Shown here piece by piece: positions 1 through 48,433 of a stretch of DNA of 64,000 bases. Within the stretch, counting starts at the first letter, position 1. The number at the start of each line of letters is the position of its first letter. Position numbers and translations under genes: made by a program. The stretch is from Longimicrobiales bacterium (lineage in GTDB: Bacteria; Gemmatimonadota; Gemmatimonadetes; Longimicrobiales; Gaopeijiaceae), in the NCBI GenBank assembly GCA_963664435.2, contig CAXXKM010000001.1, positions 1,504,001 through 1,568,000 on the forward strand, written 5' to 3'. The notes under the pieces are model-generated. The model saw nothing but the letters and a program-made list of their open reading frames with translations. It was not told the DNA's origin and did not search any database.

Positions 1-879
1 AACGCCTGCGTGGGCAACGGGGTGCCTTGGGTGCGCGCGGGCGTGGGCGCGGTGGCCACCCAGGCGGCGACCCGCACCGAATACGGCTACGAGCTCCTCG
101 GCCTGATGGAGGAGGGCGTCCTGCCGCAGGAAGCCCTGGGCCGGCGCCTGGCGGAGGACGACAACCCGACCCGGCGCCAGATCGGCGTCATCGGCGTGGA
201 CGGCCGCTCCGCCCAGCACACCGGCACCGGCGCCCGCCCGTGGGCCGGGCATCGCGCGGGCCCCAACTACGTCACCCAGGGCAACATCCTGGTGGGGCCG
301 GAAGTGATCGACGCCGTGGGAGACAGCTTCGAGTCCACCCAGGGCGCGGCCCGCCACCTGGCCGACAGACTCATCGAGGCGCTGCAGGCCGGGCAGCAGG
401 TGGGCGGGGACGCTCGCCATGGCGAGGCCCAGTCCGCCGCGGTCATGGTCGCCGACCCACGTCCCGGAATGGCCCGCCGCCAGGACGGCCTCACGGTGCA
501 GATCAACGTGTGCGAGCACGAGGAACCGATCGCGGAGATGCGCCGCATCTACGACAACATCTCCGAGACCCTCGGCTTCCGCACGCTCCAGCAGGAGATC
601 GGCCGCGACGTATACCAGCTCAAACTCATGCTGCACGAGCTCGGCTATTTCCGCGCGGACGCCGACGACGTCTCGCCCGAGGATGAGGACTGGAACGTCT
701 ACACCCAGGAAACCGTGGATGCCGTGGACGCGTATCGGGCCGCGCAGGGATGGCTGACGACGGTTCCGGGGTATGTGGATGGAGCTACCATCGAGCGGCT
801 CTGGAGCCAGCTGGAGGAAGAAGGGAAGGCGGAGGAGGTACGCAGGCGCCTGCTGGAGGTTCAGCGCATCCGGAGATGA
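1..879 (+). CDS. DUF1028-family (Ntn-hydrolase-like) protein with C-terminal peptidoglycan-binding-like domain; 5' truncated
   Basis: Motifs VPW.RAGVGAVATQA, RQ.GV, QGNIL, GGD.R..QSAA; frame is open from the window start. Confidence 0.8.
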   Translation, partial: NACVGNGVPWVRAGVGAVATQAATRTEYGYELLGLMEEGVLPQEALGRRLAEDDNPTRRQIGVIGVDGRSAQHTGTGARPWAGHRAGPNYVTQGNILVGPEVIDAVGDSFESTQGAARHLADRLIEALQAGQQVGGDARHGEAQSAAVMVADPRPGMARRQDGLTVQINVCEHEEPIAEMRRIYDNISETLGFRTLQQEIGRDVYQLKLMLHELGYFRADADDVSPEDEDWNVYTQETVDAVDAYRAAQGWLTTVPGYVDGATIERLWSQLEEEGKAEEVRRRLLEVQRIRR

Positions 880-926
880 GCAGGGTGCCGGACTTCCATG
901 TCGCCGACATGGGATGCCATACATGA
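876..926 (+). other. Bridging mini-ORF MSRVPDFHVADMGCHT
   Basis: ATGA overlap with the upstream stop (877-879) and ATGA overlap with the downstream start (923). Confidence 0.4.
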
Positions 927-1753
927 GCCCACAAACGACGATGACGAGCGAGATGGCGCCGAGTGAACGCCGGCGCGCGCCGCGAGTCCCGCCGGCCATC
1001 CCGGTGCTCGCCCTGGCGGCGCTTCTGCTTCTCCCCGCCCTCGCTCCCGCGCCCGCCACAGCCCAGACCGACCCCACGTTGCTGGCCATCATCGACGAGG
1101 TCGACCGCCTCATGCGCGGCGAATCGAGCACGGGCCGCATGCGCATGGAGATCGACACCGAGAACTGGTCGCGGACGCTCGAGATGCAGGTGTGGTCGCT
1201 CGGGACCGAGTACTCGCTGATTCGCGTCGAGAGCCCGCCGCGCGAGGCCGGCACCGCCACCCTCAAGGTCGAAAACGAGGTCTGGAACTACCTGCCCCGC
1301 GCCGACCGCACCATCAAGATCCCGCCCTCGATGATGCTCGGCTCCTGGATGGGCTCGCATGTCACCAACGACGACCTGGTGAAGGAGAGCCGCATCATCG
1401 AGGACTACGACATCGTCATCTCCTTCGAGGGGGAGCGCGACGGCGACGAGGTCTGGGAGTTCACCATGACGCCCAGGCCCGAGGCCCCGGTGATCTGGGG
1501 CAGCATCGAACAGGCCATCCGCAAGGGCGACCGCATGCCGCTGTGGACGCGCTACTACGACGAGGACGGCACCCTCTCGCGCACCATCACCTTCTCGGAT
1601 TTCGGCCCCATGGGCGGGCGCACCGTGCCCGCGCGCACCGTCATCGAGCCCGCCGACGCCGCGGAACGGACGGTGGTGACCTACCTCGAGCTCGAATTCG
1701 ACGCGGGATTGGAGGAGAGCTTCTTCAGCCTGCGCAACCTGCGGGCGCGCTGA
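923..1753 (+). CDS. Outer membrane lipoprotein-sorting (LolA-like) periplasmic protein
   Basis: Signal peptide ending ATA-Q; P.REAGTATLK, WNYLP, SWMGS..TNDDL, C-terminal FS..NL; precedes FtsX-type permeases. Start uncertain. Confidence 0.8.
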   Translation: MSPQTTMTSEMAPSERRRAPRVPPAIPVLALAALLLLPALAPAPATAQTDPTLLAIIDEVDRLMRGESSTGRMRMEIDTENWSRTLEMQVWSLGTEYSLIRVESPPREAGTATLKVENEVWNYLPRADRTIKIPPSMMLGSWMGSHVTNDDLVKESRIIEDYDIVISFEGERDGDEVWEFTMTPRPEAPVIWGSIEQAIRKGDRMPLWTRYYDEDGTLSRTITFSDFGPMGGRTVPARTVIEPADAAERTVVTYLELEFDAGLEESFFSLRNLRAR

Positions 1754-1845
1754 TGAAGAAACGGGACCGGCGCGAGCGCGAGCGCGATCGACAGTCGTCG
1801 CGCCCGGAGTCCGAGCCCGGTGCAAACGGCCACATCGGAGCATGA
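1753..1845 (+). other. Bridging mini-ORF MKKRDRRERERDRQSSRPESEPGANGHIGA
   Basis: TGATG overlap at the start; ATGA overlap with the ATG at 1842. Confidence 0.4.
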
Positions 1846-3104
1846 GGCTGATGATCCACCGCATCTGGTGGCGCATCGCCTGGCGCAACCTGTGGCGCAG
1901 CCGGCGCCGCACCCTCCTTACCGCCTCCGCCCTCGCCTTCGGCTTCGTGGCCTCCGTGCTCATGATCGGGTACATGGACGGCATCGTGGAGGAGATGGTC
2001 GCCAACGGGACCCGCGTGGTCACCGGCCAGGTCCGGATCCACGCCGAGGGTTACGAGCCTGAACGGAGCATCCACGACACGATGGGCGGCCGGGAGGGCC
2101 TCGACGTGGAGGCGCTGCTCGCGGCCGTCGAGACCCGGAACGGCGTCGTCGGAGCGGCCCCGCGGCTTTACGGGGGCGGGCTCCTCAGCTCCGGGGACGA
2201 GACCGTGGGGGGCGTGCTGGTGGGCGTCGATCCGGCCCGCGAGGCGGCCGTGAGCCGCTTCGGGAGCGCGCTGGTGGAAGGTCGCATGCCGGCGCCCGGC
2301 GAGATCGCGATGGGCGACGGCATGGCGGAAACGGTCGCGGTCGGGGTGGGCGACGAGGTGGTGCTGGTGGCGCCCGCCGCCGACGGCTCCACCGGCAACG
2401 ACCTGTTCACGGTCTCCGGCATCTTCAGCGTCGGCGTCGGGGCTCTCGACGACAGCTACGCCCTCCTCGAGATGGGCTCGCTCGCGGAGTTGATGGCGAT
2501 GGACCCGGGCCGCATCCACGAGGTGGCGATCGCGGTGGAGGATATTCGCGAGCCGGAGCCCGCCGCGGCGGCGATCCGGGAGGCCGTGGCCGGGATCGCA
2601 CCGGGACTCCGCACCGAACCCTGGTCGATCTTCCAGGACCAGCTGTACTTCATGGTCAACTACGTCGGCGCCGTGAACGTCTACGTCGCGGCCTTCATCT
2701 TCGGGATGGCGGCCTTCGGCGTGGCCAACGCAATGCTCCTGGCGACCTTCGAGCGCCGCCGGGAGTTCGCGGTGGTGCGCGCGCTCGGCACGCCGGGCGG
2801 GGCCATCGGCCGGATCGTGGTCTACGAGGGCCTGCTCCTGGGGCTCATCTCACTCGGAGCGGGCGTCCTGCTGGCCGCGCCGCTGATGGTCTACATCCAT
2901 GAGAATCCCATCGACCTGAGCCGCTACGTCGGGACCTATTCCTTCGCGGGCTCCGCGGTCCGCCCCCTGCTCACCGTCGAGTACTCCTGGGCAGGTCCCC
3001 TGGCGAGCGGGATCGCCCTGGTGGCAACCGGGATCGTCTCGGCACTCCTGCCCGCCTGGCGGGCGGTGCGCGTCCCTCCCGCCGACGCGCTGGCCAATCG
3101 CTGA
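1842..3104 (+). CDS. ABC transporter permease, FtsX/LolC-E/MacB type
   Basis: IAWRNLWRSRRRTLLT N-terminus, large periplasmic loop, ERRREF..RALG, PA.RA..V.P..AL C-terminus. Confidence 0.9.
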   Translation: MRLMIHRIWWRIAWRNLWRSRRRTLLTASALAFGFVASVLMIGYMDGIVEEMVANGTRVVTGQVRIHAEGYEPERSIHDTMGGREGLDVEALLAAVETRNGVVGAAPRLYGGGLLSSGDETVGGVLVGVDPAREAAVSRFGSALVEGRMPAPGEIAMGDGMAETVAVGVGDEVVLVAPAADGSTGNDLFTVSGIFSVGVGALDDSYALLEMGSLAELMAMDPGRIHEVAIAVEDIREPEPAAAAIREAVAGIAPGLRTEPWSIFQDQLYFMVNYVGAVNVYVAAFIFGMAAFGVANAMLLATFERRREFAVVRALGTPGGAIGRIVVYEGLLLGLISLGAGVLLAAPLMVYIHENPIDLSRYVGTYSFAGSAVRPLLTVEYSWAGPLASGIALVATGIVSALLPAWRAVRVPPADALANR

Positions 3105-4372
3105 TGGGCCGTCTTCCCACCCTTACCTGGCTGGCGCTGCGCAACCTGGGCCGGGAGTTCCGGCGGAGCGCCCTCACCGCCGCCGCCATGGCGCTGGGGC
3201 TCGCGCTCCTGATCTGGTCCCGCTCCCTGGCCGACGGCGCCCACGAGGACTGGATCGACGCGGGCGTGCGGCTCGGAGAGGGACACGTCACCTTCACCGC
3301 ATCCGGCTACCGCGACAGCAAAAGCCTGGACGACCGCCTGTCGCCCGCCCAGCTGGAGGTGGCGCTGGGGGCGCTCGGTGAGGTCGAACTCCGGGACGCT
3401 TTCGCCGCCGCGCCGCCGCTGGCTTCGGTGCGGGTCGAGACCCGCGGGCTCGCGTCCTCTCCCTACGGCGCGCTCCCGGTGTTCATCGTCGGCGTCCAAC
3501 CCTCGGTCGAACCGGGCTTCTCCAGGCTCGGGGAGGAAGTTGTCGACGGGCGCTACCTGGAAGAAGGCGACCGCCTGCACGCCTTCATCGGTGCGTCGCT
3601 GGCGGAGCGCCTGGGCGTCCGCACCGGATCGCGCATGGTGCTGACGGCGCAGTCGGTCCCGGGGGACATCGAGGGGCAGCTGGTGCGCGTTGTGGGAACC
3701 TACCGCACCGGCGTCCAGGGTCTCGACGAGTCGCTGGTGCACATCCCGCTCGCCACCGCGCGCGCCTGGCTGGGAGTGGAGGGCGCCACCAGCGTCGCCG
3801 TGCTGCTGCCCAACTCGACCTTCACCGATCCGGTACGCGGCGAGCTGGATTCGGCCACGCGTCCCGACGGCATCCAGGTGGTGGGGTGGCCGGAGTCGCT
3901 GCCGGACCTTTACGCGGCGCTCCAGCTCGACGACGGCGGCGACTGGGCCTTCCACGTCATTCTCTTCATCATCGTCGCCCTAGCGATCCTCAACGCCATC
4001 TTCATGTCGGTGCTCAACCGCAAGCGCGAGCTGGGGCTGCTGCGGGCCCTGGGACTGAGCGGCGGCGAGACGGGGCTCGTCGTCTACATCGAGGGCGTGC
4101 TGCTCACGGGCGCGAGCGGGATCGTGGGCGTGGCGCTCGGCATGGTCATCGTGTTCGTGTTCTTCCGCGACGGGATGGACCTTTCGGGGCTGATGCCCGA
4201 CGACATCAACTTCGGGGGCATCGCCTTCGATCCGGTCATGGTCCCGGTGATCCAGGCCAGGCACGTGGTGCAGAGCGTGCTCCTGACGGCGACGATCGGG
4301 CTGGCCGCATCCCTCTTCCCGGCGTGGCACGCGGCCCGCCTGGACCCGGCTGAGTCAGTCAAGGTGGAATAG
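3104..4372 (+). CDS. ABC transporter permease, FtsX/LolC-E/MacB type (paralog)
   Basis: LALRNL.R..RRS.LT, R.RELGLLRALG, PAW.AARLDP; TGATG-coupled to the upstream gene. Confidence 0.9.
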   Translation: MGRLPTLTWLALRNLGREFRRSALTAAAMALGLALLIWSRSLADGAHEDWIDAGVRLGEGHVTFTASGYRDSKSLDDRLSPAQLEVALGALGEVELRDAFAAAPPLASVRVETRGLASSPYGALPVFIVGVQPSVEPGFSRLGEEVVDGRYLEEGDRLHAFIGASLAERLGVRTGSRMVLTAQSVPGDIEGQLVRVVGTYRTGVQGLDESLVHIPLATARAWLGVEGATSVAVLLPNSTFTDPVRGELDSATRPDGIQVVGWPESLPDLYAALQLDDGGDWAFHVILFIIVALAILNAIFMSVLNRKRELGLLRALGLSGGETGLVVYIEGVLLTGASGIVGVALGMVIVFVFFRDGMDLSGLMPDDINFGGIAFDPVMVPVIQARHVVQSVLLTATIGLAASLFPAWHAARLDPAESVKVE

Positions 4373-11812: not shown

Positions 11813-13450
11813 ATGACCCGGAACCACCTTCGCTTCGTCCTCGCCTGCGTCTGTAGCACCGCGCCGGTCCTGCTCGCCCTGGCGCCGGCGCCCCTCTCCG
11901 CCCAACACGACGAGCACGGACCAGGTCCGGCTCCCGACGGCGAGGAGGTCCTGCTCATTTCCTCGGCCCTCGGGCCGTACTCGCGCACCATCACCACCGG
12001 CTCCGAGGCAGCGCAGGCCTACTTCGTGCAGGGCATGCAGCTCATGTACGCCTTCACGCCCTCGGACGCGAACCGCTCCTTCAAGGAAGCTCAGCGCCAC
12101 GATCCCGAGTGCGCGATGTGCTACTTCGGCGAAGCGTGGTCGCTGGGCCGCTATCTGAACGGCGCCATGCTGCCCGAGGACGCCCCCACCGCCTACGCCG
12201 CCATCCACAAGGCGAAGGAGCTGGCCGCACGGTCCGGCACCGAGATCGAGCGGGCCCTCATCAACGCGATGATCGTCCGCTACGCGCCCGAACACGAGGG
12301 CGACGAGCAGCGCCTCGAGCTGGACAAGGCGTACGCCGCCGCCATGGAGAAGGTGTGGGAGGCGCATCCCGGGGACCAGGAGGTGGGGACCTTCTACGGC
12401 GAGTCGCTCATGCTGCTCCAGCCCCGGCGCGGCTACTGGGACATCGAGAACCCCGAGGTGCAGAAGATCCACGCGGTGCTCGAACAGACGCTCGCGCTGA
12501 ACATCGCCCACCCGGGCGCGTGCCATCTCTACGTCCACGCGACCGAACCCACCGCCCGTCCCGGCAAGGCGGAGGCGTGCGCGGACCATCTCGGCCAGTC
12601 GATTCCCGGCGCGAGCCACATCCAGCACATGCCGTCCCATACCTACAACCGGATCGGGCGCTGGCACGACGCGGTGATCGCCAACACGCACGCCTGGCAC
12701 TCCGACCAGAAGGCCAACCACGACCTGGGCTTCGCCATCTACCCGTCGCACAACCTGCACATGCTGCTCTTCGCCGCCTCCATGGCGGGCGAGGGCGCGG
12801 TCGCCATGCAGGCCTCGCGCAACTACGGCAGGCTCGTGTCGGGCGGCAGCTTCTACGAGTCGCTCACCGGCGTCCGCTTCGGTCTCTGGGAGGACGTGCT
12901 TGCCATCGAGGAGCAGCCCGAGCAGCCCCTCTTCGCGGGCTTCTGGGACTTCGGGCGCGGCTTCGCCCATCTGCGCATGGAACGGCCCGACAGCGCCGCG
13001 TTCTACATGGAGCGGCTGAGGGAGGCGCGCGGCGAGCTCGAGGACGAGGCGCCCTTCCGCGGGCACTCGGCCGTCGATCTCATCACCGTCGTGGGCGGGA
13101 TTCTCGAGGGCGAGATCCTTGCCGCCGAAGGCGATGTCGACGGGGCCGTGCGCGTGCTCGAGGAGGCCATCGAGGTCGAGGACGGCCTCCGCTACGACGA
13201 GCCCGAGCCCCTGAACTTCGCGGCGCGCCACTGGCTGGGCGCCATCCTGAACGACGCCGGACGCCACGCGGAGGCCGAAGACGTGTTCCGCGCCGCGCTC
13301 GTGGACCATCCGCACAACGGCTGGTCGCTCTTCGGGCTGGAGCGGGCGCTGCGGGCCCAGGGCCGCGACGCGGACGCCGACGAGGTGCTGGCCGAGCGCA
13401 TGGAGTACTGGGCCAACGCCGATGTCTGGCTGATGTCGGCGCGCTTCTAG
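11813..13450 (+). CDS. Exported TPR-containing protein
   Basis: SD GGAG; signal peptide ending LSA-Q; AQ.YF.QG, DP.CAMCY.GEA, HPGA.HLY.H, HMPSH.Y.R.G, P.NGWSL.GL. Confidence 0.8.
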   Translation: MTRNHLRFVLACVCSTAPVLLALAPAPLSAQHDEHGPGPAPDGEEVLLISSALGPYSRTITTGSEAAQAYFVQGMQLMYAFTPSDANRSFKEAQRHDPECAMCYFGEAWSLGRYLNGAMLPEDAPTAYAAIHKAKELAARSGTEIERALINAMIVRYAPEHEGDEQRLELDKAYAAAMEKVWEAHPGDQEVGTFYGESLMLLQPRRGYWDIENPEVQKIHAVLEQTLALNIAHPGACHLYVHATEPTARPGKAEACADHLGQSIPGASHIQHMPSHTYNRIGRWHDAVIANTHAWHSDQKANHDLGFAIYPSHNLHMLLFAASMAGEGAVAMQASRNYGRLVSGGSFYESLTGVRFGLWEDVLAIEEQPEQPLFAGFWDFGRGFAHLRMERPDSAAFYMERLREARGELEDEAPFRGHSAVDLITVVGGILEGEILAAEGDVDGAVRVLEEAIEVEDGLRYDEPEPLNFAARHWLGAILNDAGRHAEAEDVFRAALVDHPHNGWSLFGLERALRAQGRDADADEVLAERMEYWANADVWLMSARF

Positions 13451-13540
13451 ATGCCGACGCGTTTCCAGATGCCGACGCGCTTCCAGATGCGGGGGCGCTT
13501 CCAGATGCGGGGGCGCTTCCAGATGCCGGCGCGCTTCCGG
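13433..13540 (+). repeat. 18-nt tandem repeat x6 whose first unit is the last six codons of the TPR gene
   Basis: atgtcggcgcgcttctag, atgccgacgcgtttccag, atgccgacgcgcttccag, atgcgggggcgcttccag x2, atgccggcgcgcttccgg. Confidence 0.9.
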
Positions 13541-13557
13541 ATGCTAGGGTGCCGCTG

Positions 13558-14439
13558 ATGACGGCGCGGGGCGCGCTTCGGGCCGCCAGGACGCTCATCC
13601 CGTCGGGCAGGACGCGCATGTGGGCGCTCGTCCTGGCCACGATATGGACGGGCGCCTCGGCGGTCCTCGCGAGCCCGGCAAGCGCGCAGCGGTGGGGACG
13701 CGGCTGGGGCCGGCGCGCGCCCATGGCCAACCCGGGCGAGGCCGCCGAGTTCGGCTTCACCTTCTGCCGCATCGCCTACCGAAGCGTGCGCAACGAGGCT
13801 CTGGGCCAGGGCTGGCGCACCGACTACCCCAACTCGGACGCCAACTTCTCCCTGCGCTTTTCGCAGCTCACCACCAGCGCGGTCAGCCGCTCCGAGGACG
13901 GGGAGCCCTTCTACGCGGTCGTATCCCTGGAGGACGATCAGATCTTCGAGTGTCCCTTCGTCTTCATGTCGGACGTGGGGACGGTCGGCTTCGACGCCGA
14001 AGAGATCGAGCGCCTGCGCACCTATCTCCTGAAGGGCGGCTTTCTCTACGTGGACGACTTCTGGGGCGAGCGCGCCTGGCAGCACTGGGAGCAGGTCATG
14101 CTGGAGGTGCTCCCCGATCACTTCATCCAGGACGTTCCGAGCGATCACCTGCTCCTGAACGGGCTCTACCAGGTCCGGAACGTGCCGCAGGTGCCCTCGA
14201 TCCAGTACTGGTACCGGACGGGGCGCCAGGCGACCTCGGAGCGGGGGTTCGAGAGCGCCGAAGTACACTTCCGCGCGATCTTCGACGAGGACGGGCGGGC
14301 GATGGTGGTCATGACCCACAACACCGACATCGCGGACGGCTGGGAGCGCGAGGGCGAGGACGAGTCGTTCTTCTTCCGGTTCTCCCCGGAGTCGTACGCG
14401 CTCGGCATCAACATCGTGCTGTATGCGCTGACGCACTGA
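13558..14439 (+). CDS. DUF4159-family protein
   Basis: FTFCRI.Y, W.TDYP, LR.YL.KGGF..VDDFWG, NTDI.DGWE, G.NIV.YALTH. Alternative start 13618. Confidence 0.85.
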   Translation: MTARGALRAARTLIPSGRTRMWALVLATIWTGASAVLASPASAQRWGRGWGRRAPMANPGEAAEFGFTFCRIAYRSVRNEALGQGWRTDYPNSDANFSLRFSQLTTSAVSRSEDGEPFYAVVSLEDDQIFECPFVFMSDVGTVGFDAEEIERLRTYLLKGGFLYVDDFWGERAWQHWEQVMLEVLPDHFIQDVPSDHLLLNGLYQVRNVPQVPSIQYWYRTGRQATSERGFESAEVHFRAIFDEDGRAMVVMTHNTDIADGWEREGEDESFFFRFSPESYALGINIVLYALTH

Positions 14440-14482
14440 TGATTACTGGTGATATCACTAGCATCTACTGATGATATGGTAG
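14439..14482 (+). other. Chained mini-ORFs [10 protein letters not shown] (14439-14471) and MIW (14471-14482), containing the palindrome GTGATATCAC
   Basis: TGATG at 14437-14441 and 14469-14473; the last TAG overlaps ATG 14476. Confidence 0.4.
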
Positions 14483-26127: not shown

Positions 26128-28200
26128 CTACCGGCGACCCGGGGTCACGGAGAGCAGCGGTGACTCGCCCACGACCCGGGGCGAGGCCTCCCGCAACACG
26201 CCGACATCCCTTGTGACGTCAATTGGGACCACCGCGCGCGATCTGTAATCACCGGTGGTGGAACTGCCTTCGACCGGGACGCCGTTGACTTCGATCCAGT
26301 CAAACAGGCCGGTGTTGACATTGCTCGTCTCGTCCTCGCTTTCTGCCAGAACGTCCCGGAGATTGATCATCCAGAGACCCACTCCCGCGAGATCGGTCGG
26401 GAACCAGTCCGGTAGGTTATTGAATTCGAGAATCGCTTCATCCCCGGCGAGTACCCGCAATCGGATTCCAGTCAGGTCAACCGTGATTCGGGTCAACTCC
26501 GCGCTGGCTGTGTTGATGAGCTCCGAGACGCCGTAGGCGCCGTCGATATAGTACCAGCCTGCACCTTGGCTCCCCTCTGTATCGTAGATTGCGAAGCGAT
26601 AGTTTGTCGGCACGGGGCCATCGTTGAAATTCAGAGTCCAGTCGCCGATGCCTACCCGGAAGGCCTGGATTCTTGCATCACCCGTCGAGAAGACCAGCGC
26701 CGTGGATGCGCTATCGCTCGCTTGACCCATGCTGACACCTACCTCCCAACTTGTGATCGATGCACTGATTATGTGCTCGGCTGCTGCCAACAGCGTCGAG
26801 TCGGTATCCGACAAGCGCAAAGTCCCGTCCGACACTTCGGCCTGAGAGCCCTCGGTGTCCCAGTCGGAAAGGCTGCTGTCGTCCTCGAAGTCGTCGCGGA
26901 AGATGGCTTGCGCGGTGTCGATCACCGTGAGATCGAAACTGGTTGACGCCGAAAGCCCACCCGGATCGGTCGCCGTGACCGTGCCGGTGGTCGCCCCGAT
27001 CGTGAGGGCCGAAACTCGTACGACACTCCCGGTTACGGTGGCGCTCGCCACGCTCGAATCGGCCATCTCGGCAGAGTAGGTCAACGCGTCGCCGTCCGGG
27101 TCGGTGAAGAGCGGAGAGTCGCCCTCCAAGTCCAATGTCCCCGAAGTCCCCACGGTCAGCCTCGAGGGTCGAATCGTCCCTTCCACCTCAGGGGCCTGGT
27201 TTACCCGCTCGATCACCGTGACGGTACCGCTCAGCGAAGCCGTCAGGCCGTACGGATCCGTCGCCGTGACCGTCACCGTGGCCGTCCCGATGGCCACCGC
27301 GGTTACCGTCAGCGTCCCGCCTGATACGGAGACGGTCGCCACTCCGGCATCGTCCGATTCCGCCTCGTAGGTCAGTGCCTGTCCGTTCGGGTCGGTGAAG
27401 TACTGGGCGATATTCACCGTCTCGGAATTGCGCTCCTGAATGCTCTGAGAGGAAAGCGAGTCCCGGGTGGCTTCGGGCGGCAGGTTGGGCTCGACCGTCA
27501 CGGGTACGCTGAGGGAGCCGGACAGGCCGTCCGGGTCGGTCGCCGTGACCGTGAGCGTCGTCGATCCGGCACCCACCGCCGCGGCAGACACCACGGCGCC
27601 TGCCACGGTCACCGTGGCCACGGACGCGTTGGCGCTGGTCGCGGCGTAGGTCAGCGCGTCGCCGTCCGGGTCGGTGAAGAACGGCGACATGTCGACGTTG
27701 AGGGTGTCGCCCACGATGGCAGTCTGCGCGGGCGCGACCGGCACGGCCGGCACCGGCGCCCGGTTGGGCTCCATCACCGTCACGTTGGCGCCGGCCGCGA
27801 CGGAGAGCCCCGCGGGGTCGCGGGCGGTCACGGTGACCGTGGCGCTGCCGGCGGCCACGGCCGTGATGGTCAGGTCGGTGCCCGACAGCGCGACGCTCGC
27901 CACGCCCGCGTTGGAGGAGATCGCGGTAAAGGTCAGGGGATCGCCGTCGGGGTCGCTGAAGAGACCGCCCACGCTCACCGTAACCGACTCGCCCGCCGTC
28001 ATGTTCTGGGCCGGAATCGAGCCCGACGCCGCCGGCGGGCGGTTGGGCTGGGGCGCCGGCTCGGGGTCGGTTGTGCCTCCGTCTCCGCCGCAAGCGGCGG
28101 CCCAGATCACGGCCAGCAGAGCCAGCGGACGGACGAAGCGTCCCCGGAGAACTCCGGACGGCTGAACACCCGAATGAGTTGGGACACGTGAGCCTGTCAT
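26128..28200 (-). CDS. Surface lipoprotein with four cadherin/Ig-like repeats and a C-terminal beta-sandwich domain
   Basis: Lipobox AAAC; four N..P...F.DP(D/N)G..LT...TVTA.DP.GL units. Confidence 0.85.
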   Translation of the reverse strand: MTGSRVPTHSGVQPSGVLRGRFVRPLALLAVIWAAACGGDGGTTDPEPAPQPNRPPAASGSIPAQNMTAGESVTVSVGGLFSDPDGDPLTFTAISSNAGVASVALSGTDLTITAVAAGSATVTVTARDPAGLSVAAGANVTVMEPNRAPVPAVPVAPAQTAIVGDTLNVDMSPFFTDPDGDALTYAATSANASVATVTVAGAVVSAAAVGAGSTTLTVTATDPDGLSGSLSVPVTVEPNLPPEATRDSLSSQSIQERNSETVNIAQYFTDPNGQALTYEAESDDAGVATVSVSGGTLTVTAVAIGTATVTVTATDPYGLTASLSGTVTVIERVNQAPEVEGTIRPSRLTVGTSGTLDLEGDSPLFTDPDGDALTYSAEMADSSVASATVTGSVVRVSALTIGATTGTVTATDPGGLSASTSFDLTVIDTAQAIFRDDFEDDSSLSDWDTEGSQAEVSDGTLRLSDTDSTLLAAAEHIISASITSWEVGVSMGQASDSASTALVFSTGDARIQAFRVGIGDWTLNFNDGPVPTNYRFAIYDTEGSQGAGWYYIDGAYGVSELINTASAELTRITVDLTGIRLRVLAGDEAILEFNNLPDWFPTDLAGVGLWMINLRDVLAESEDETSNVNTGLFDWIEVNGVPVEGSSTTGDYRSRAVVPIDVTRDVGVLREASPRVVGESPLLSVTPGRR

Positions 28201-28402
28201 CACCGCATGCCTTGTTGGAGTGGCTGGAAGTTCTCGTTCATGCCGGCAAAGCCGGCGGTCCGGGTGCAACATCGTGGCAGCGTCCCTGAAAAGGGAAGCG
28301 GTTGTCGTCCAGCGCGATCGCACGCCCGAGCGACGTCATCCGCATATCCGGCCAGCGTCATCGCAACCCGGCCAGCGTTGCCGCGCACCCCGCCGGCGTC
28401 AC
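28200..28402 (-). other. Two chained bridging mini-ORFs (28402-28358, 14 aa; 28361-28200, 53 aa)
   Basis: GTGA overlap with stop 28399, ATGA overlap at 28358-28361, TGATG overlap with ATG 28200; degenerate ~21-nt repeats at 28348-28409. Confidence 0.4.
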
Positions 28403-29730
28403 CGCGCACCCGGGCGGTCACCCGCCAAACGGGGCATCCCCGCCGGCGCAGCCGTTGCGGCGCTTGCGGTTGCGGCCCCCGCCGTGTGCGTCCCGCTTAC
28501 CTCCACCCAGTCGAAGAGGGCGGTTCTCGCCTCGGCCCCGTCCAGGGGGAAGACCCACAGGCCGATCGCGGTCAGGCGAGTGGGATGGTCGCTGCCCAGG
28601 GTGACCGCGAAGAGCTCCGTCTCGCCGGCCCACGCACGCAGTTCGCCGTCATCCAGCGAAGCGGCGATCTCGGTAAACTCGCCGGCACCGTCCTGAATGG
28701 CATCCGAGACGCCGTAGGCGCCCTCGATGACCACCCAGCGGTTCTCCGGGGGCCAACGTGACCGGTCCAGGGTGTAGAAACGGTAGTTGGTATCGCCTCC
28801 GCCGACCGAGACGCCGGATCCGACATCGAGCGCGTACCACGCGTAACGCTCGTGCCCGGTAGCGAAGATCACCGACGCGACCACGCTGTCCGTCTGCGTG
28901 CGCCCCAGGCGGGCGCGCACCTCCCAGAAGTTGATCGGGGCCTCAAGGTTGCGATTCGCGCGGCCGGCGATGCCGCGTTCGAGATTGGTGAGCGCCAGGA
29001 CACCCTCGGACAGCACCGTGTCCGCCTGTTCGACGCCCCATGCCTCCAGGCCCGAATCGAAGTCCTCCCGGAAGCCGAGGGTCGGACCGGGGACGACCGT
29101 TACGGCAACTTCGTGCGCCGCCGTCAGGCCGCCGGGATCGGTGGCCGTCAACATCAGCGTCGTCGTGCCCGCCGCCACGCCCGCGATCGACATCGTCAGG
29201 CCGGACACCGAAGCCAGGACTACGCGCGGGTTTGAAGACGAGGCCTGGTAGCTGAGCGCGCCCCCGTCCGGGTCGTCGAAGTACGAGGAAACCTCCAGCG
29301 GGACCGTCTCGCCGGAGGCCAGGTTCACCGCCTGAATCGAGCCCGTCGCCACCGGCGGCCGGTTCGTCCGCACCGTGACGCCGGTGCTCTGGGTGGCCGC
29401 GAGCCCGCCCGGATCGCGGGCCGTCAGAGTCAGAATCGCCCTCCCCGAAGACACCGCCGTGACCGCCACCAGGGTCCCGGAAACCGCGACCCGCGCGGTC
29501 GCCGCGTCCGTCCTCGCCTCGTAGCTCAGGCTGTCTCCGTCGGGGTCGGTGAAGTAGGGGGACACCTCCACCAGCACCACCTGCCCCTCGACCAGGGTCA
29601 GGGAGGGGATGGACGCCGCGGCCACCGGCGCCCGGTTCCGGTCCGCGAGGGTGGGCCCGGTCGTGCCCGGACGACAGCCGGCGGTTCCCAGGGCCAGCAA
29701 CAGGAGCACGGGGGCGCGGGCCTTCGTCAC
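28399..29730 (-). CDS. Surface lipoprotein with two cadherin/Ig-like repeats and the same C-terminal domain
   Basis: Lipobox TAGC; two DPDG repeats; FR.DF...TNYRF...GAYGVS...LFDW.EV.G shared with the neighbour. In-frame coupled GTG at 29871 is an alternative start. Confidence 0.85.
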   Translation of the reverse strand: MTKARAPVLLLLALGTAGCRPGTTGPTLADRNRAPVAAASIPSLTLVEGQVVLVEVSPYFTDPDGDSLSYEARTDAATARVAVSGTLVAVTAVSSGRAILTLTARDPGGLAATQSTGVTVRTNRPPVATGSIQAVNLASGETVPLEVSSYFDDPDGGALSYQASSSNPRVVLASVSGLTMSIAGVAAGTTTLMLTATDPGGLTAAHEVAVTVVPGPTLGFREDFDSGLEAWGVEQADTVLSEGVLALTNLERGIAGRANRNLEAPINFWEVRARLGRTQTDSVVASVIFATGHERYAWYALDVGSGVSVGGGDTNYRFYTLDRSRWPPENRWVVIEGAYGVSDAIQDGAGEFTEIAASLDDGELRAWAGETELFAVTLGSDHPTRLTAIGLWVFPLDGAEARTALFDWVEVSGTHTAGAATASAATAAPAGMPRLAGDRPGAR

Positions 29731-29867
29731 GACCCGTCGAAGCAGATCCCGACGAGGGCCGGGGACGCCACGGACGCCGGACGGCGCCGGCGTCAGGATC
29801 GGGCTCGTCAAGTCACGGTTCCGGGTTCCGATCTCACCCGGGAAGCGCTCGGCCTCAGGGATCTCCC

Positions 29868-30845
29868 TCACCCTCCCTGCACGTACTCCGCCACCGCCCG
29901 GTGGGTCGCGTACCAGACGTCGCCACGGGCGTTGATGTGCTCGATGAGGCCTTCCAGGATGAGGATGCGGGAGCGGTGGCCGATGTAGTGCGGGTGCATG
30001 GTGAGCACAAGCATGGTGCCCTCCTCCCAGGCGCGGTCGAACTCGTCGATGTAGACCTGGAGGACGTCGCGGGGGGCGCTGTAGCTGTTGCCCCGCGGAT
30101 TCAGGAGGGGCGCGTCGTCCAGGATCCACTCCACGGGCAGCTCGATCAGGCCGGTCGGCTCCCCGTTCGCGACGATCTCGTAGGGCCGGTCGTCGGCCAT
30201 CAACGAACTGTCGTAGAGGAAGTCCATGTCGAGGATGATGTCGAGGGTGTTGGGGCTGAAGTTCCACGACGGGGCCCGGTAGCCGACCGGACGCTCGCCG
30301 GTGACCTCGGTGTAATACGCGACCGCGCGCTCCAGCAGGGCCCGCTCCTCGTCGGCCTCAAGCAGCGAGTTGGTCTCGTGGATCCAGCCGTGAATGGCGA
30401 TTTCGTGGTGGCCGGCAGCCTGAATCGCGTCCAGCATCTCCGGGTTGAACTGCATGCTCATCGCGGGGATGAAGAAGGATGCGGGGATGTCGTGCTCGTC
30501 GAGGACCTCGAGCACCCGCGGGAGGGCGCGGCGTGCGCCGTACTCGCCCTGGGACAGGCCGCCGACGGTGGGTTGCCCGTTGCGGATGGGGATGGTTTCG
30601 TTGTCCACGTCGAAGGAGAGCAGCACCGCGGCGCGGGCACCGCCCGGCCAGCTGGCGGGCGTCAGGTCGCGTCCGGCCCTTACCGCGTTGACGGTCGCGA
30701 AGACGCGTTCGTCGCTCCATCGCCAGCCCGGCTCGTCGTCGGCCTGGGGCGACTGGGCGGCGTCCGCGGTGCCGGCGCCGGGCGCGCAGGAGGAGAGGAT
30801 GACGGCGAAGGCCGCGACGGCGAGGAGGGTCGGACGCGGGTTCAT
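29868..30845 (-). CDS. Polysaccharide deacetylase (CE4, PuuE/PgdA-like) lipoprotein
   Basis: Lipobox LSSC; SFDVD, HEIAIHGWIHE, GYRAPSW, YDSSLM.DD.PY, LTMHP..IG. Confidence 0.88.
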   Translation of the reverse strand: MNPRPTLLAVAAFAVILSSCAPGAGTADAAQSPQADDEPGWRWSDERVFATVNAVRAGRDLTPASWPGGARAAVLLSFDVDNETIPIRNGQPTVGGLSQGEYGARRALPRVLEVLDEHDIPASFFIPAMSMQFNPEMLDAIQAAGHHEIAIHGWIHETNSLLEADEERALLERAVAYYTEVTGERPVGYRAPSWNFSPNTLDIILDMDFLYDSSLMADDRPYEIVANGEPTGLIELPVEWILDDAPLLNPRGNSYSAPRDVLQVYIDEFDRAWEEGTMLVLTMHPHYIGHRSRILILEGLIEHINARGDVWYATHRAVAEYVQGG

Positions 30846-39926: not shown

Positions 39927-39943
39927 ATGAGAATCATTCTCAT
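39927..39943. promoter_or_regulatory. Fur-box-like inverted repeat upstream of feoAB
   Basis: Perfect 8-1-8 ATGAGAAT-C-ATTCTCAT, close to the TGATAATnATTATCA 7-1-7 model. Confidence 0.8.
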
Positions 39944-41827: not shown

Positions 41828-41830
41828 GGA

Positions 41831-42682: not shown

Positions 42683-43881
42683 GGGCCGGCCTCGGGGGAC
42701 TGCACGCGGGAACCCGAAGGCCGTGATGATCGGTCCGGGGCGGCAAGCCTGCGTAGCAGGTGCCACCACGACCCGATCACCGATCCGCCGAGCACCCGTC
42801 CAGCTTCAAGGTCATTGAGAACCGGCCGCCAAGGCGGGCGCCACCAGCGCGAGGATGGCTTCGCATCGGACGACGGTCGCAGACGGGCCGTGCCCGGGCG
42901 GTCCATCAGGCCGTCGGCGGCCACGAGCAGGAGCGCCAGGAGGATCAGCCAGGTCGCCGGGTCGCCTGGGCCGCCGCCTTCCTCCCCGTCCTCGGGGACC
43001 CTGCGGAAGCGGGCGGCGAGTTGGGCCAGGCCGCGGTCGTCGGATGCGTCCAGGTAGCCGCCCCCGCCAGCGCGGGCGACACCCCGCAGCAGCCGTTCAT
43101 TGAGCCGCGAGACCACTGGTGCGCCGCCTGCGTCCGTGACCTGAGCGCCCGCGCCGTCCCCCCCCAGCCCCGCCCCCTCCGCCGTGCCGATCCCCGCAAC
43201 CCAGATGCCAACGTCCCCGGCGGCCGCGATGGCCGCGCTGTCCGCCACGGCGAACTCGTCCTCGTGCGCCTCGCCATCGGTCACCAGAAGGATGACGCGC
43301 TCCCTCCCCTCCTCCCGGCGCGCGTCGAGCTGCCGGCGCGCCTCGCCGATGGCAGCGCTCACGCGGGTGCCCTGGTCGCGCTCGCCCAGGAAGTTCTCCG
43401 ACAGCGAGTCGGCGAAGAAGCGCACCACCTGCTGGTCGTCGGTAATCGGGGCGAGCGTGTGGGGCCAGTCGGCGAACACCACCAGGCCGACACGCTCGCC
43501 CGGCAGCGCCTCCAGGAGCGCCCCGATCGCTTCCCTGGCACGCGCCATCCGCCCGCCCGGCACGTCTTGCGCCGCCATCGAGGCGGAAATGTCCAGCGCA
43601 ACCACCACGTCGACCGGACGCGAGGCGTTCAGGCCGATCCCCGGCCCGAAGCGCACCCCGGCGGCCGCGAGGACCATCACGGTCACCGCCAGGCCGAGGA
43701 TCCGGAGCCGCCGCCGGGGGAAGTCCATCAGTTCGCGGGTGGTCAGGCGCCCGGCCGCCTCCTCGCCCCCGAACCCTTCCGCGAGCCGGCGCAGCCGCCG
43801 GGTACTGCGGGCCAGCGCAAACGCGATCAGGCCGAGCGCGACCGGAAGAAGGAGCAGGAGGATGGGACGCGCAAACGTCAT
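42679..43881 (-). CDS. VWA-domain membrane protein (BatB-like)
   Basis: MTFARP..L; MIDAS DISAS; RVGLVVFA, QGT, LVTDGE.H, GIGT..G. Confidence 0.9.
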   Translation of the reverse strand: MTFARPILLLLLPVALGLIAFALARSTRRLRRLAEGFGGEEAAGRLTTRELMDFPRRRLRILGLAVTVMVLAAAGVRFGPGIGLNASRPVDVVVALDISASMAAQDVPGGRMARAREAIGALLEALPGERVGLVVFADWPHTLAPITDDQQVVRFFADSLSENFLGERDQGTRVSAAIGEARRQLDARREEGRERVILLVTDGEAHEDEFAVADSAAIAAAGDVGIWVAGIGTAEGAGLGGDGAGAQVTDAGGAPVVSRLNERLLRGVARAGGGGYLDASDDRGLAQLAARFRRVPEDGEEGGGPGDPATWLILLALLLVAADGLMDRPGTARLRPSSDAKPSSRWWRPPWRPVLNDLEAGRVLGGSVIGSWWHLLRRLAAPDRSSRPSGSRVQSPEAGP

Positions 43882-43997
43882 GGCGCCCTCCCCGCCCCGC
43901 CGGGCACTTCCGCCCGCCCGTGCCCGGCGCCCGCGACCGGCCCGGGCGACGCAGCGCGCACCCTCGCCAGGGCCCCGAACCGCTCCGCGCCCCTCAC
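43878..43997 (-). other. Bridging mini-ORF (39 aa) between the two VWA genes
   Basis: GTGA overlap with stop 43994 and ATGA overlap with start 43881; no internal stop. Confidence 0.4.
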
Positions 43998-44971: not shown

Positions 44972-46293
44972 CGGGAGCCTCCGGAAGAGCCGGCGTCGCC
45001 GGGCATGTCGTCGCCGGACTCTTCAGTCGGGCCGTCGCGGTCCCGGTCGATCTCAGCCGCCGTCGAGACGAACGCCGGCGCCTGCCCCGAGGCGTTCACC
45101 CATGCCCGCATCGCCTCCCAGTCACGCTCGGCCGCGGCACCTCCCTGCTCGCGGGCTGCGGCTGCGGACGGGCCGGCGAGTGGGGCGAACTTCGCCACCT
45201 CCCCCCGCCCCATCGCGCGGGCCAGATCGCCCGGGTCGGGCCAGCCGGGCGCTACGGACAGGTCGCGCATCAGCTCCGTGCTCGTCCGGCTGCAGCTCCA
45301 TGCGGGGTCGAAGCGCGCCAGGTACCCGCGTATTACATCCCCCGCGTCCTCATAGAAGTCGCGCAGCCGTCCCGCCCGGTGGTGGCCGCCCGCGAGCACG
45401 CGGTCGAGTTCGGCGAGCGCCCGTTCTCTCCACTCTGCCGGCGTCTCCGGCGGGGCCTCAACCTGAACCGCTGCCGGCGCGCGCGCCGCCAGCCACTCCC
45501 GCGCCTGCACCGTCACCACGCCGAGCAGCAGCAGGGACAGGAGCGAGGCGCCCAACACGGCCGGGACGTTCCAGCTGAAACCCACCACGTCGGCCGGCGG
45601 GCTCGGCTGCAGGCCGCGCGCGATGTCGTCGAGCAGGATGGGCGAGGTCACGAAGACCCGCCGCCCGGCGATCACCAGCCGGTCCCGGGGACGCGCGTCC
45701 GGGCCCGGCCGCAGCCCGGCATCAGCACCGATCCGTTCTCCGGTCCGACTCCCGTTCCGCGTATTTTGTGTATTTTGTGTATTTTGTGTAATTGCGGCCC
45801 CGACCGGGTCCGTGGTCGCCCCTGGAACGTCCTCCACGCGAACCCGACCTTCTCCCTCCTCCGCCTCCCCGCTGCTCATCTCCAGCTGAGGAGTCGCCGC
45901 GAGCCCGATCTCGAAGGGAATCAGATCGTATTCGAGCGAGACCTGAAGGGACCCGTCTCCCACTTCGACCACATCGGTCCGCACGCGCCGCAGGCTTTCC
46001 ACGCCCCACTCCGGAAGAAGCGTCGCGGGCACGCGCAGCTCCCGTCCGGGACCCACGTAGACGGTCGCATGGAGGGTGAAGGGATCTCCCAGCTCCACGG
46101 TGTCGGGGGACACGCGCACCGCCTGAACCGCCGCCCGCTCCTGCAGGCCGAGTGCATCCGTCGCGAACATTCCCATGGACGCGATCACGGTCAGCCCACC
46201 GACCCAAACCTTCATCCCAGCGCCGGCGCCCGCCGATCGACACCCTGACAACGCGGCCCCTCCGTGCCGTGCCCGTTTGTCCCAGGCCTTCAT
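44968..46293 (-). CDS. Bat-operon accessory membrane protein (BatD/DUF4381-like)
   Basis: V.LGDPF.L N-domain, single TM, FY.....IR.YL, TSTEL, VAKFA. Alternative start MKVW about 78 nt inside. Confidence 0.7.
   Translation of the reverse strand: MKAWDKRARHGGAALSGCRSAGAGAGMKVWVGGLTVIASMGMFATDALGLQERAAVQAVRVSPDTVELGDPFTLHATVYVGPGRELRVPATLLPEWGVESLRRVRTDVVEVGDGSLQVSLEYDLIPFEIGLAATPQLEMSSGEAEEGEGRVRVEDVPGATTDPVGAAITQNTQNTQNTRNGSRTGERIGADAGLRPGPDARPRDRLVIAGRRVFVTSPILLDDIARGLQPSPPADVVGFSWNVPAVLGASLLSLLLLGVVTVQAREWLAARAPAAVQVEAPPETPAEWRERALAELDRVLAGGHHRAGRLRDFYEDAGDVIRGYLARFDPAWSCSRTSTELMRDLSVAPGWPDPGDLARAMGRGEVAKFAPLAGPSAAAAREQGGAAAERDWEAMRAWVNASGQAPAFVSTAAEIDRDRDGPTEESGDDMPGDAGSSGGSR
45761..45787. 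repeat. AT-rich 9-nt perfect tandem repeat x3 inside a CDS
   Basis: gtattttgt x3, encoding TQN-TQN-TQN on the minus strand. Confidence 0.9.
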
Positions 46294-47234
46294 CGAAACG
46301 CCCGCCCCCGTCGCCGCCCGGGCGTCCGCTCGCGCGCCCGGAAGAACTCCGCCAGCACGGGCACGTAATCCTCATCGGACCCTACCTCCACGACCTCCAG
46401 TCCCAGCTCGCGAAAGAGCCGGGTCAGTCGTTCCCGCGCCTCGCCGGCCTGCCGCGCATAGGCGCCGCGCACCCCTGCCCGCCCGGTATCGACGATGCGG
46501 CGCTCCCCCGACTCCGGGTCCACCACCCGCACCAGACCCACATCCGGGAGCCCCATCTGCCCGGGATCGTTCAGACGGATCGGCACCAGGTCGTGCTGGA
46601 AGCTGAAGCGGCTCGCGATGCGCGCCAGGCGAAGATCGGCCTCGAAATCGACCAGGAAGTCGCTGATGAGGAAGACCGCCGCCCGTCGCCGCAGCACCTT
46701 CGCCAGGAACTCCAGCCCGGACGAGAGCTTCGTGCGCCGGCCCGCGGGCTTGAGCGAGAGCAACTCGAAGATCAGCCGCAGGGCGTGGCGGCGGCCCGTG
46801 TCGGGAGGGATGAAGAGCTCCGTGTGGTCGCTGACCACCAGCAGCCCGACGTGGTCGTTGTTGCGCGCGGCCGAGAGGGCCAGGATGCAGGCGATCTCGC
46901 TCGCGATGCGGGCGTTGGACGCGACCCCGGTGCCGAAATCCTGCGATCCCGACAGATCCACCATGAGGATGGCGGTGAGCTCGCGCTCCTCCTCGTGCTG
47001 CTTGATGAAGAAGCGGCCCCGGCGCGCGGTCACGTTCCAGTCGATGGAGCGGATGTCGTCGCCCGGCTGGTACTCGCGCACCTCCGAGAACTCGAGGCCG
47101 CGGCCCTTGAACACCGAGCGGTACTCGCCGCTGAAGAGCGACTCCACCAGCCCGCGGGTACGCAGTTCGATCTGCTTCACACGGGCGGCGAAAACCCGGG
47201 GATGCTCGCGCGCGATGGATTGTCTTGCGGGCAC
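46290..47234 (-). CDS. DUF58-family protein
   Basis: GEYRSVFKGRGLEFSEVREYQPGDDIR.IDWNVTAR, EEREL, ISDF; SD GGAGG + GTG. Confidence 0.93.
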   Translation of the reverse strand: MPARQSIAREHPRVFAARVKQIELRTRGLVESLFSGEYRSVFKGRGLEFSEVREYQPGDDIRSIDWNVTARRGRFFIKQHEEERELTAILMVDLSGSQDFGTGVASNARIASEIACILALSAARNNDHVGLLVVSDHTELFIPPDTGRRHALRLIFELLSLKPAGRRTKLSSGLEFLAKVLRRRAAVFLISDFLVDFEADLRLARIASRFSFQHDLVPIRLNDPGQMGLPDVGLVRVVDPESGERRIVDTGRAGVRGAYARQAGEARERLTRLFRELGLEVVEVGSDEDYVPVLAEFFRARERTPGRRRGRAFR

Positions 47235-47359
47235 GGCGGCCTCCGACGGCTACCCGGAGCGGAGAGGCCCGGTCGCGCGGATGGAGCCTGTCGCACCGCG
47301 GAACGCCCTCGGCCGCGAGGACCCCGCCAGCCGCGAGCCGGGACCCGGTGCGCCTCTCC

Positions 47360-48361
47360 TCATGGCGCAGGCACCGCCTCCAGCACCCGGCGGACGACCT
47401 CGTCCGTGCCGATGCCGCGCGCGTCGGCCTCGTAGGTGGTGCGCAGTCGGTGCGGCAGCACCATGGGCGCCATCGCCTTGACGTCGTCGGGCATCACGAA
47501 ACCGCGGCCGCCAAGCCAGGCGCGGGCCCGGGAAGTGCGCGCGAGGAAGATGGATGCCCGCGGCGAAGTCCCGAAATCGATCAGGCTCTCCAGCTCATCG
47601 AGCCCGTACCTGGCCGGCTCGCGGGTGGCGAAGGCCAGCTCCACGATGTAGTCGAGCACGGCTTCCTCCACGTGCACCGCAGCGACCCGCCTGCGGGCGC
47701 GAAACACCTCGTCCACGGTCGCGACGGCATCGAGCGGGGTCCCGGCCCGGTCTCCCGCCCAGCGCACGATCTCCTTTTCCTCGTCGCGAGAGGGGTATCC
47801 GATGTCCAGCTTCATGGCGAAGCGATCCAGCTGCGCCTCGGCCAGCGGATAGGTTCCGTGCAGCTCCACCGGGTTCTGCGTCGCCAGGACCATGAAGGGA
47901 TCGGCCAGCGGAAAGGTGTCGCCGGCGATCGACACCTGGCGCTCCTCCATCGCCTCGAGCAGCGCCGCCTGCACCTTGGGCGGAGCGCGGTTGATCTCGT
48001 CCGCGAGCACGATGTTGGAGAAGACCGGCCCCTTGTGCACGCGGAATTCGCCCGTGCGCGGGTCCAGGATGGGGGTGCCGGCTATGTCGCTCGGGAGCAG
48101 GTCGGGCGTGAACTGGATGCGGCTGAAGCCGGTGTCGATGGCGCTGGCCAGCGTGCGCACCATGAGCGTCTTGGCGAGCCCCGGAAGGCCCTCGAGCAGC
48201 ACGTGGCCTCCCGTCAGAAGCGCGATGAGCAGGGCCTCGACCGCCGGGTCCTGGCCCACCACTCGCTCGCGCACCGCGGCTGTGACCCGGCGCGAGAGCC
48301 CAACCCCCGCCGCCCCGGCGCCGGCTTCCCGCTCCAGCACTCCCGCGGCTTCTCCCGGCAT
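47360..48361 (-). CDS. moxR: MoxR-family AAA+ ATPase
   Basis: GHVLLEGLPGLAKT, RIQFTPDLLPSD, DEINRAPPKVQ.ALLEAM, ATQNP, LDRF. Confidence 0.95.
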   Translation of the reverse strand: MPGEAAGVLEREAGAGAAGVGLSRRVTAAVRERVVGQDPAVEALLIALLTGGHVLLEGLPGLAKTLMVRTLASAIDTGFSRIQFTPDLLPSDIAGTPILDPRTGEFRVHKGPVFSNIVLADEINRAPPKVQAALLEAMEERQVSIAGDTFPLADPFMVLATQNPVELHGTYPLAEAQLDRFAMKLDIGYPSRDEEKEIVRWAGDRAGTPLDAVATVDEVFRARRRVAAVHVEEAVLDYIVELAFATREPARYGLDELESLIDFGTSPRASIFLARTSRARAWLGGRGFVMPDDVKAMAPMVLPHRLRTTYEADARGIGTDEVVRRVLEAVPAP

Positions 48362-48433
48362 CAGGCCAGCACCCCCGCTGCGTCGCCGGGCATCAGGCCA
48401 GCACCCCCGCTGCGTCGCCGGGCATCAGGCCAG
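48359..48433 (-). repeat. 32-nt perfect tandem repeat forming two identical mini-ORFs MPGDAAGVLA
   Basis: catcaggccagcacccccgctgcgtcgccggg x2; TGATG junctions at 48425, 48393 and 48361. Confidence 0.9.

What the first reader, a model, noticed from the sequence alone, without database searches (positions are those of the whole stretch)
876..48425. Recurrent 'bridge' mini-ORFs that keep operon genes translationally coupled across spacers
Seen: at seven co-directional junctions the spacer is exactly spanned by tiny ORFs joined to both neighbours. These are 876-926 (ATGA...ATGA), 1753-1845 (TGATG...ATGA), 13451-13558 (abutting TAG|ATG...TGATG), 14439-14482 (two chained), 28402-28200 (minus, two chained), 43997-43878 (minus, GTGA...ATGA) and 48425-48361 (minus, two chained). 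Partial cases: 47363-47250, 60124-60156, 63103-63267. The peptides are unrelated to each other, and most downstream starts lack a well-spaced SD. Known: ATGA/TGATG overlaps support termination-reinitiation coupling. Inference: a ribosome relay in which spacer insertions persist only if they preserve the stop-start chain, with peptide sequence irrelevant and link number possibly tuning downstream expression.
Basis: partly seen in the sequence, partly recalled or inferred. Interest (0 to 1): 0.8.

Follow-up and report, generated by a model that had tools for sequence, protein, structure and literature searches.

The report
Relay mini-ORFs across expanded gene junctions
In this sponge-associated bacterium, gaps that opened between once-overlapping neighbouring genes are spanned, more often than chance predicts, by tiny throw-away reading frames that probably pass ribosomes from one gene to the next; the idea has precedents, and translation itself was not shown.

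Summary
All ten mini-ORFs exist. The organism is a 68% GC member of Longimicrobiales. Genome-wide, 110 of 1296 non-overlapping co-directional junctions are bridged, against 63±7 under a swap null, so over half are chance.

The sharper test compares stops overlapped by a start codon with CTGA stops. The frame they open ends on the next start in 68/214 versus 44/277 cases, and runs out of frame into the next gene in 22/214 versus 106/277.

Among relatives, 13451, 43997 and 48425 stay coupled in every genome compared while spacer length varies; so does the partial case 47363. The BatA/BatB-like junction is a direct overlap in 36/36 outgroup loci, and direct or an exact bridge (five lengths) in 17/17 genomes of the genus. 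Junction 1753 is mixed; 876, 14439 and 28402 are not conserved.

The peptides show no codon-position constraint. The claimed SD deficit is absent, and tuning by link number is untested. Best reading (0.6): expansions of ancestral overlaps persist when reinitiation still reaches the next gene. Mycobacterial MIRUs are a precedent, and the scan noted this pattern in four other genomes.

The parts
876..926 (+). 16-aa bridge, DUF1028 gene to LolA-like gene (ATGA...ATGA); probably chance
   Evidence: strict chain in 1 of 8 genomes, the 7 relatives end in TAG
1753..1845 (+). 30-aa bridge, LolA-like gene to MacB/FtsX permease (TGATG...ATGA); labile
   Evidence: coupled in 4 of 8 genomes (1 direct, 2 one-link, 1 two-link)
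13451..13558 (+). 35-aa bridge built of an 18-nt tandem array, TPR gene to DUF4159 gene
   Evidence: array 13432-13544, 6.3 copies; 18 of 18 genomes coupled when gaps of 0-1 nt are allowed: 7 direct or abutting, 11 one-link
14439..14482 (+). two links (14439-14471, 14471-14482) in an AT-rich block before a PQQ dehydrogenase; chain not conserved
   Evidence: chain in 2 of 17 genomes even with relaxed joins
28200..28402 (-). two links (28402-28358, 28361-28200) between Ig-domain genes; partly a 21-nt tandem array; chain not conserved
   Evidence: array 28334-28413; coupled in 4 of 19 genomes
43878..43997 (-). 39-aa bridge between BatA-like and BatB-like VWA genes; best-supported case
   Evidence: 17 of 17 genus genomes coupled, stop-to-start distance -1 (4), 10 (8), 67, 76, 115 (2), 229; 36 of 36 outgroup loci direct NTGA; gene names, below the family cut-offs
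47250..47363 (-). 37-aa link from the MoxR stop to a conserved TAG 15 nt before the DUF58 start, with an SD-like site in between
   Evidence: 17 of 17 genomes reach that TAG over 11, 56, 110 or 135 nt, one through three links
48361..48425 (-). two 10-aa links (48425-48393, 48393-48361): tandem copies of the amidohydrolase-stop/MoxR-start junction
   Evidence: 32-nt unit x3.1; direct TGATG in 14 of 17 genomes, two links in 3; an in-frame 3-nt deletion at 48412 in 2 of 4 laid runs
60124..60156 (+). 10-aa ORF opened at the Yip1 stop, ends 49 nt before the TRAP permease start; not a bridge here
   Evidence: full one-link bridge in 5 of 18 genomes compared, not in this one
63103..63267 (+). TTG-started ORF not coupled to the upstream stop; rejected
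   Evidence: no chain in 16 of 16 genomes compared

Best explanation
Many junctions began as 4-nt or 1-nt stop/start overlaps (shown for 13451, 43997, 48425). Local duplications and other indels pushed the genes apart and left the old start codon on the upstream stop (duplication shown for a minority). Ribosomes that terminate there probably restart on that codon (inferred). The outcome is tolerated if the frame ends on or just before the next start, where they restart again or open up that start, and is removed if the frame runs out of frame into the next gene (inferred from counts). The peptides are by-products. The result is a scattered, sequence-independent set of relay ORFs: about 47 of the 110 in this genome exceed chance, the rest are incidental.
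For: 110/1296 versus 63.2±6.6. Start-overlapped versus CTGA stops: ends on next start 68/214 versus 44/277 (length-stratified OR 2.66, p 2e-5); runs into next gene 22/214 versus 106/277 (OR 0.17, p 4e-13). Holds at three gene-score thresholds and within each phase (wrong phase 9/72 versus 49/114; weaker, p 0.07, at the strictest threshold) and with GC and length as covariates (OR 0.17, z -6.2, n 535). Same direction in 6 of 6 relatives' blocks, summed 18/128 versus 138/338, not independent. Families with a direct-overlap member: 28/66 frame-changed spacers chained versus 18.0±2.5 with phase randomised; one spacer per family 17.7 of 27 versus 11.9±1.9. BatA/BatB-like junction. Substitutions by codon position 31/38/29 of 129 in 8 bridge families versus 19/23/64 of 320 in upstream genes. 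Coupling is lost by about +38 nt in tested pairs (PMC10666635, abstract and first part of the Discussion read), so a long spacer needs a relay or its own initiation.
Against: No translation data. Given both ends, bridge frames are no more often free of internal stops than control frames (65/83 versus 43/57 and 54/78, OR 1.16, p 0.69). The stop-overlapping start is kept in 36/46 orthologue pairs of bridged genes, between unchained (47/68) and direct (193/202). Duplications containing a stop plus start keep phase in 13/30, no more than the 42-48% that microhomologies supply. CTGA genes also show a phase excess, 163:114. Bridged starts have as much SD as others, so they may initiate on their own. 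Starts come from my own gene caller. In E. coli, recycling-factor depletion data were read as favouring de novo initiation (Saito et al. 2020; seen as a search listing, and as discussed in PMC10666635).
Confidence: 0.6

Rival explanations
1. Neutral relics. Duplication of an overlap copies both NTGA ends, codon periodicity biases duplications to the bridging phase, and frameshifts in gene tails leave the old tail as an apparent bridge. No ribosome needs to use them.
For: 16 of 117 bridges show a junction-duplication signature versus 2.5±1.6; microhomologies give the bridging phase in 42-48%; CTGA phase excess and no extra openness; short bridges flip between GTGA and CTGA among relatives.
Against: A tail-relic origin predicts that CTGA stops behave like ATGA/GTGA stops, but they differ 2.7-fold in coupling and about 4-fold in run-in. 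Wrong-phase junctions still lack run-in frames. Five spacer lengths at 43997 and four at 47363 all keep frame.
Confidence: 0.2
2. Damage control, not relay. Ribosomes do restart at stop-overlapping starts, but selection only removes frames that run over the next gene's start. The downstream gene initiates from its own SD, and ending exactly on its start reflects how common ATGA starts are.
For: Run-in depletion is the strongest signal; no SD deficit; 280 of 736 divergent gene heads start NTGA anyway; fourth-site A enrichment is general in bacteria (PMC5850271, abstract start and passages).
Against: Starts with NTGA are commoner behind start-overlapped stops (83/142 versus 135/335); the BatA/BatB-like junction is never uncoupled in 17 genus genomes and 36 outgroup loci.
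Confidence: 0.15
3. The mini-ORFs are small-protein genes missed by annotation.
For: A few links score as coding, for example one of 39 aa with score 28.9; some lengths are kept across genomes.
Against: No third-position bias in 8 equal-length families; lengths of 3 to 76 codons at one junction; most coding scores are at or below zero.
Confidence: 0.05

Closest known systems
Translational coupling by termination-reinitiation at ATGA/TGATG overlaps (PMC6728339, passages; PMC10666635, abstract and first part of Discussion)
   Same: Same joins and proposed mechanism; the junctions derive from such overlaps.
   Different: Two or more hand-overs in series through a non-conserved ORF across 10-230 nt; not measured here.
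Mycobacterial interspersed repetitive units, MIRUs (passage in review PMC12548453, citing Supply et al. 1997, which I did not see)
   Same: An intergenic short ORF coupled to the downstream gene at -4 spacing keeps expression after an insertion.
   Different: MIRUs are a repeat family thought to be mobile; here 93 of 98 bridged spacers of 20 nt or more are single-copy and some arise by local duplication.
Class 1 integron ORF-11 and short ORFs inside attC sites (review PMC8876359, passages)
   Same: Short ORFs whose peptide matters little deliver ribosomes; attC ORFs are described as started by termination-reinitiation.
   Different: Those belong to a recombination platform, ORF-11 has its own SD, and attC is a hairpin; bridged spacers here are not more structured than shuffles or than unbridged spacers.
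Leader-gene reinitiation and bicistronic design (PMC4833913, abstract only; PMC12548453, passage)
   Same: A short ORF ending shortly before a start raises its translation; matches the 47363-47250 case (13-15 nt gap).
   Different: Leader ORFs start de novo at the 5' end; these start on an upstream gene's stop inside an operon.

Membership tests
Termination-reinitiation coupling | Stop/start overlap of 4 or 1 nt at each hand-over | tested here: met
   876, 1753, 28402, 43997, 48425 strict; 13451 abutting at one end; 14439 needs a 7-nt overlap
Termination-reinitiation coupling | Downstream translation depends on upstream termination nearby | not testable with these tools
Termination-reinitiation coupling | Join conserved in evolution | tested here: inconclusive
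   met at 13451, 43997, 48425, 47363; partly at 1753; not at 876, 14439, 28402
MIRU | Dispersed homologous repeat family | tested here: not met
   5 of 98 spacers have two or more genomic copies
MIRU | Internal ORF coupled to the downstream gene by a 4-nt overlap | tested here: met
MIRU | Mobility with insertion at start codons | tested here: inconclusive
   local duplication explains 16 of 117; the source of the longer inserts at 43997 was not traced
Integron ORF-11/attC ORFs | attI/attC sites and integrase | not tested
   no integron search was run; flanking genes are chromosomal operon genes
Small-protein genes | Purifying selection on the peptide | tested here: not met
   substitutions 0.24/0.29/0.22 by codon position, 8 families

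The most novel reading that the evidence does not exclude
Reinitiation at any start codon overlapping a stop is strong enough in this lineage to act as a genome-wide rule of spacer evolution: junctions grow and shrink by up to about 230 nt only along paths that keep a chain of disposable ORFs, and serial links serve as an evolvable dial on downstream output. The contrast between start-overlapped and CTGA stops would then measure reinitiation strength in any uncultured genome.
Probability: 0.3. Interest if true: 0.7.

Novelty: new variant of a known kind. Interest (0 to 1): 0.45.

Why it matters
Whether bacterial ribosomes restart after termination or start afresh at coupled genes is disputed (PMC12548453 passages, PMC10666635 Discussion). 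The contrast between start-overlapped and CTGA stops is a sequence-only test with a built-in control that can be run on any genome. The BatA/BatB-like junction gives a natural series (direct, and bridges of 3, 22, 25, 38-39 and 76 codons) for a reporter test. If true, some 'intergenic' DNA is translated for relay only, and synthetic operons should avoid accidental NTGA starts that run out of frame.

Tried and rejected
First swap and insertion nulls produced false direct joins and were replaced by a conditioned null. The s+1 control frame is not independent of two-link chains and was not used. The per-family same-phase test (0.65 versus 0.23) has a biased control, and the length-change test (19/33 versus 90/286 multiples of three) depends on called starts; neither is relied on. 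The 14439 comparison used an out-of-frame query and was redone. One search was cut in the middle and stopped before 60127; both parts were redone. A 400-kb block of a seventh relative could not be obtained, so the block comparison covers six. SD deficit rejected. Hairpin origin rejected: folding z 0.04 for 61 bridged versus -0.01 for 150 sampled unbridged spacers. Repeat-family origin rejected for 93 of 98. A plasmid search with MoxR gave only distant ATPases. Laid contigs cannot show expression. Paper searches found no genome-wide count of doubly coupled spacer ORFs; the library lacks most subscription journals, so this does not show absence from print. One search was for background only. No supplements were read.
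Full report
Setting. The window is G000:C1:1504001-1568000 in a 4.5-Mb genome of 68% GC with an intact anti-SD tail. The closest named records are labelled Longimicrobiales or Gemmatimonadetes; four carry a Gammaproteobacteria label. Runs that hold the stretch include sponge metagenomes. Eighteen other genomes of the genus were available. No gene caller was installed, so I wrote a self-trained hexamer caller whose start choice ignores overlaps: 3418 genes, 84% coding. Its starts are imperfect, so I favoured tests that depend on frame only.

Observation. All ten ORFs are present as described. The flanking genes are ordinary operon members: a LolA-like protein and MacB/FtsX permeases, TPR and DUF4159 proteins, a PQQ dehydrogenase, Ig-domain proteins, a MoxR-DUF58-VWA-VWA (Bat-like) operon and a TRAP transporter. 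Three bridged spacers are tandem arrays: 18 nt x6.3, 21 nt x3.8 and 32 nt x3.1.

More than chance? Of 2151 co-directional junctions, 1296 are non-overlapping, within 600 nt and have a usable spacer. Of these, 110 are spanned by a chain of ATG/GTG-started ORFs joined by 4-nt or 1-nt overlaps. Swapping spacer halves between junctions of similar length, and rejecting draws that create a direct join, gives 63.2±6.6 with a maximum of 81 in 200. The excess is 1.7-fold, and about 60% of bridges are incidental.

A test with a built-in control. The base before a TGA stop decides whether a start codon overlaps it. I took junctions 8-300 nt apart whose phase excludes a direct join. The frame opened by an ATG/GTG on the stop ends on the next start in 68 of 214; the same frame behind CTGA does so in 44 of 277 (length-stratified OR 2.66). 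It runs more than 12 nt out of frame into the next gene in 22 of 214 versus 106 of 277 (OR 0.17, p 4e-13). The result survives ignoring weak gene calls, three score thresholds and ATG-only starts; within the wrong phase it is 9/72 versus 49/114, and p 0.07 at the strictest threshold. It also survives logistic adjustment for length, phase and GC. All six relatives' blocks point the same way.

Orthologous junctions in the window. At 43997 all 17 genomes are coupled: 4 directly, 8 by a 3-codon bridge, and 5 by bridges over 67, 76, 115, 115 and 229 nt. Outside the genus, 36 of 36 loci with both genes have the direct 4-nt overlap, 5 of them with TTG; one locus lacked the second gene. At 48425, 14 of 17 are direct and 3 carry two extra junction copies in phase, one shortened by 3 nt; contigs from 2 of 4 laid runs have a 3-nt deletion inside link 1. 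At 13451, 18 of 18 are coupled if gaps of 0-1 nt are allowed, and the five genomes on the far side of a midpoint-rooted tree are direct. The partial case 47363 is conserved too: 17 of 17 reach the same TAG 13-15 nt before the DUF58 start over four spacer lengths. Against this, 876 is chained in 1 of 8 genomes, 1753 in 4 of 8, 14439 in 2 of 17, 28402 in 4 of 19 and 63103 in 0 of 16; 60124 is a full bridge in 5 of 18, but not here.

Orthologous junctions at scale. Blocks of 400 kb from six relatives gave 423 junction families. In families with a directly overlapping member, 28 of 66 frame-changed spacers are chained (phase-randomised null 18.0±2.5, maximum 24 in 300); in other families 41 of 429 (null 30.2±3.6). 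With one spacer per family: 17.7 of 27 versus 11.9±1.9. Kin are not independent, so these figures overstate certainty.

Origin and constraint. Sixteen of 117 bridged spacers show similarity around both overlaps, versus 2.5 expected, so junction duplication is one source; only 5 of 98 have other genomic copies. Equal-length orthologous bridges change equally at all codon positions, unlike the genes beside them. Results against a purely selected relay: microhomologies around direct overlaps already favour the bridging phase (42-48%), and observed duplications keep it in only 13 of 30; CTGA genes show a phase excess as well; bridge frames are not more open than controls once both ends are fixed; bridged starts have normal SD content; the stop-overlapping start is kept in 36 of 46 orthologue pairs, less than at direct overlaps, 193 of 202.

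Mechanism. Shown: descent from direct overlaps at three junctions, phase kept through repeated length changes, and a genome-wide contrast that depends on whether the codon on the stop can start translation. Inferred: ribosomes restart there, run-in frames are purged, and frames that end on the next start hand the ribosome on or clear that start. From the literature: coupling falls off steeply with distance (PMC10666635). Not shown: translation, any effect on expression, tuning by link number. Odds: relay under selection 0.6, neutral relics 0.2, damage control only 0.15, small proteins 0.05.

Comparison. It works like MIRU ORFs, integron short ORFs and bicistronic designs. It is not a MIRU family, since the repeat criterion fails. 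Six searches found no genome-wide count of such bridges in the held library. Four earlier notes of this scan describe the same pattern in other genomes, one also at about twofold; they are unchecked leads, and they pointed me to MIRUs. None was on record for this genome. Verdict: a real class-level signal, about half of the listed cases meaningful, a new variant of a known kind, interest 0.45.

Noticed in passing
window 48361-48425 and loci L002, L004-L011: The extra junction copies match MoxR 5' ends of other species better than the working copy beside them (both copies here equal the start in six other genomes; one copy in G005 equals the start in G012). This hints at recombination between species adding copies.
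   Followed up: no
window 14437-14482, loci L126-L143: An AT-rich block rich in TGAT repeats before the PQQ dehydrogenase is kept in many relatives although the chain is not; it may be a regulatory site or promoter.
   Followed up: partly
G000 C1(+) near 728776; C3(+) near 574619; C3(-), 634427 counted on the minus strand: A 101-codon bridged spacer occurs in 5 genomic copies, probably part of a repeated or mobile cluster.
   Followed up: no
G000 C1(-), 1162354 counted on the minus strand: A 39-aa link has a clear coding score and a hydrophobic stretch; likely a real small membrane protein (the likeness to CcmD is recalled, not tested).
   Followed up: no
window 58726-58778: A 23-nt tandem repeat containing the upstream TAG in an unbridged spacer; one copy is missing in a contig of run X18.
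   Followed up: partly
genome-wide: TTGA-ended genes behave in between (run-in 9/49), as expected if TTG is a weak restart codon; CTGA-ended genes show an unexplained phase excess at 8-30 nt, 48 of 59.
   Followed up: partly
window 26128-30267 and genus genomes: Ig-domain proteins are expanded: 28 matches here, 6-63 per genome across the genus.
   Followed up: no
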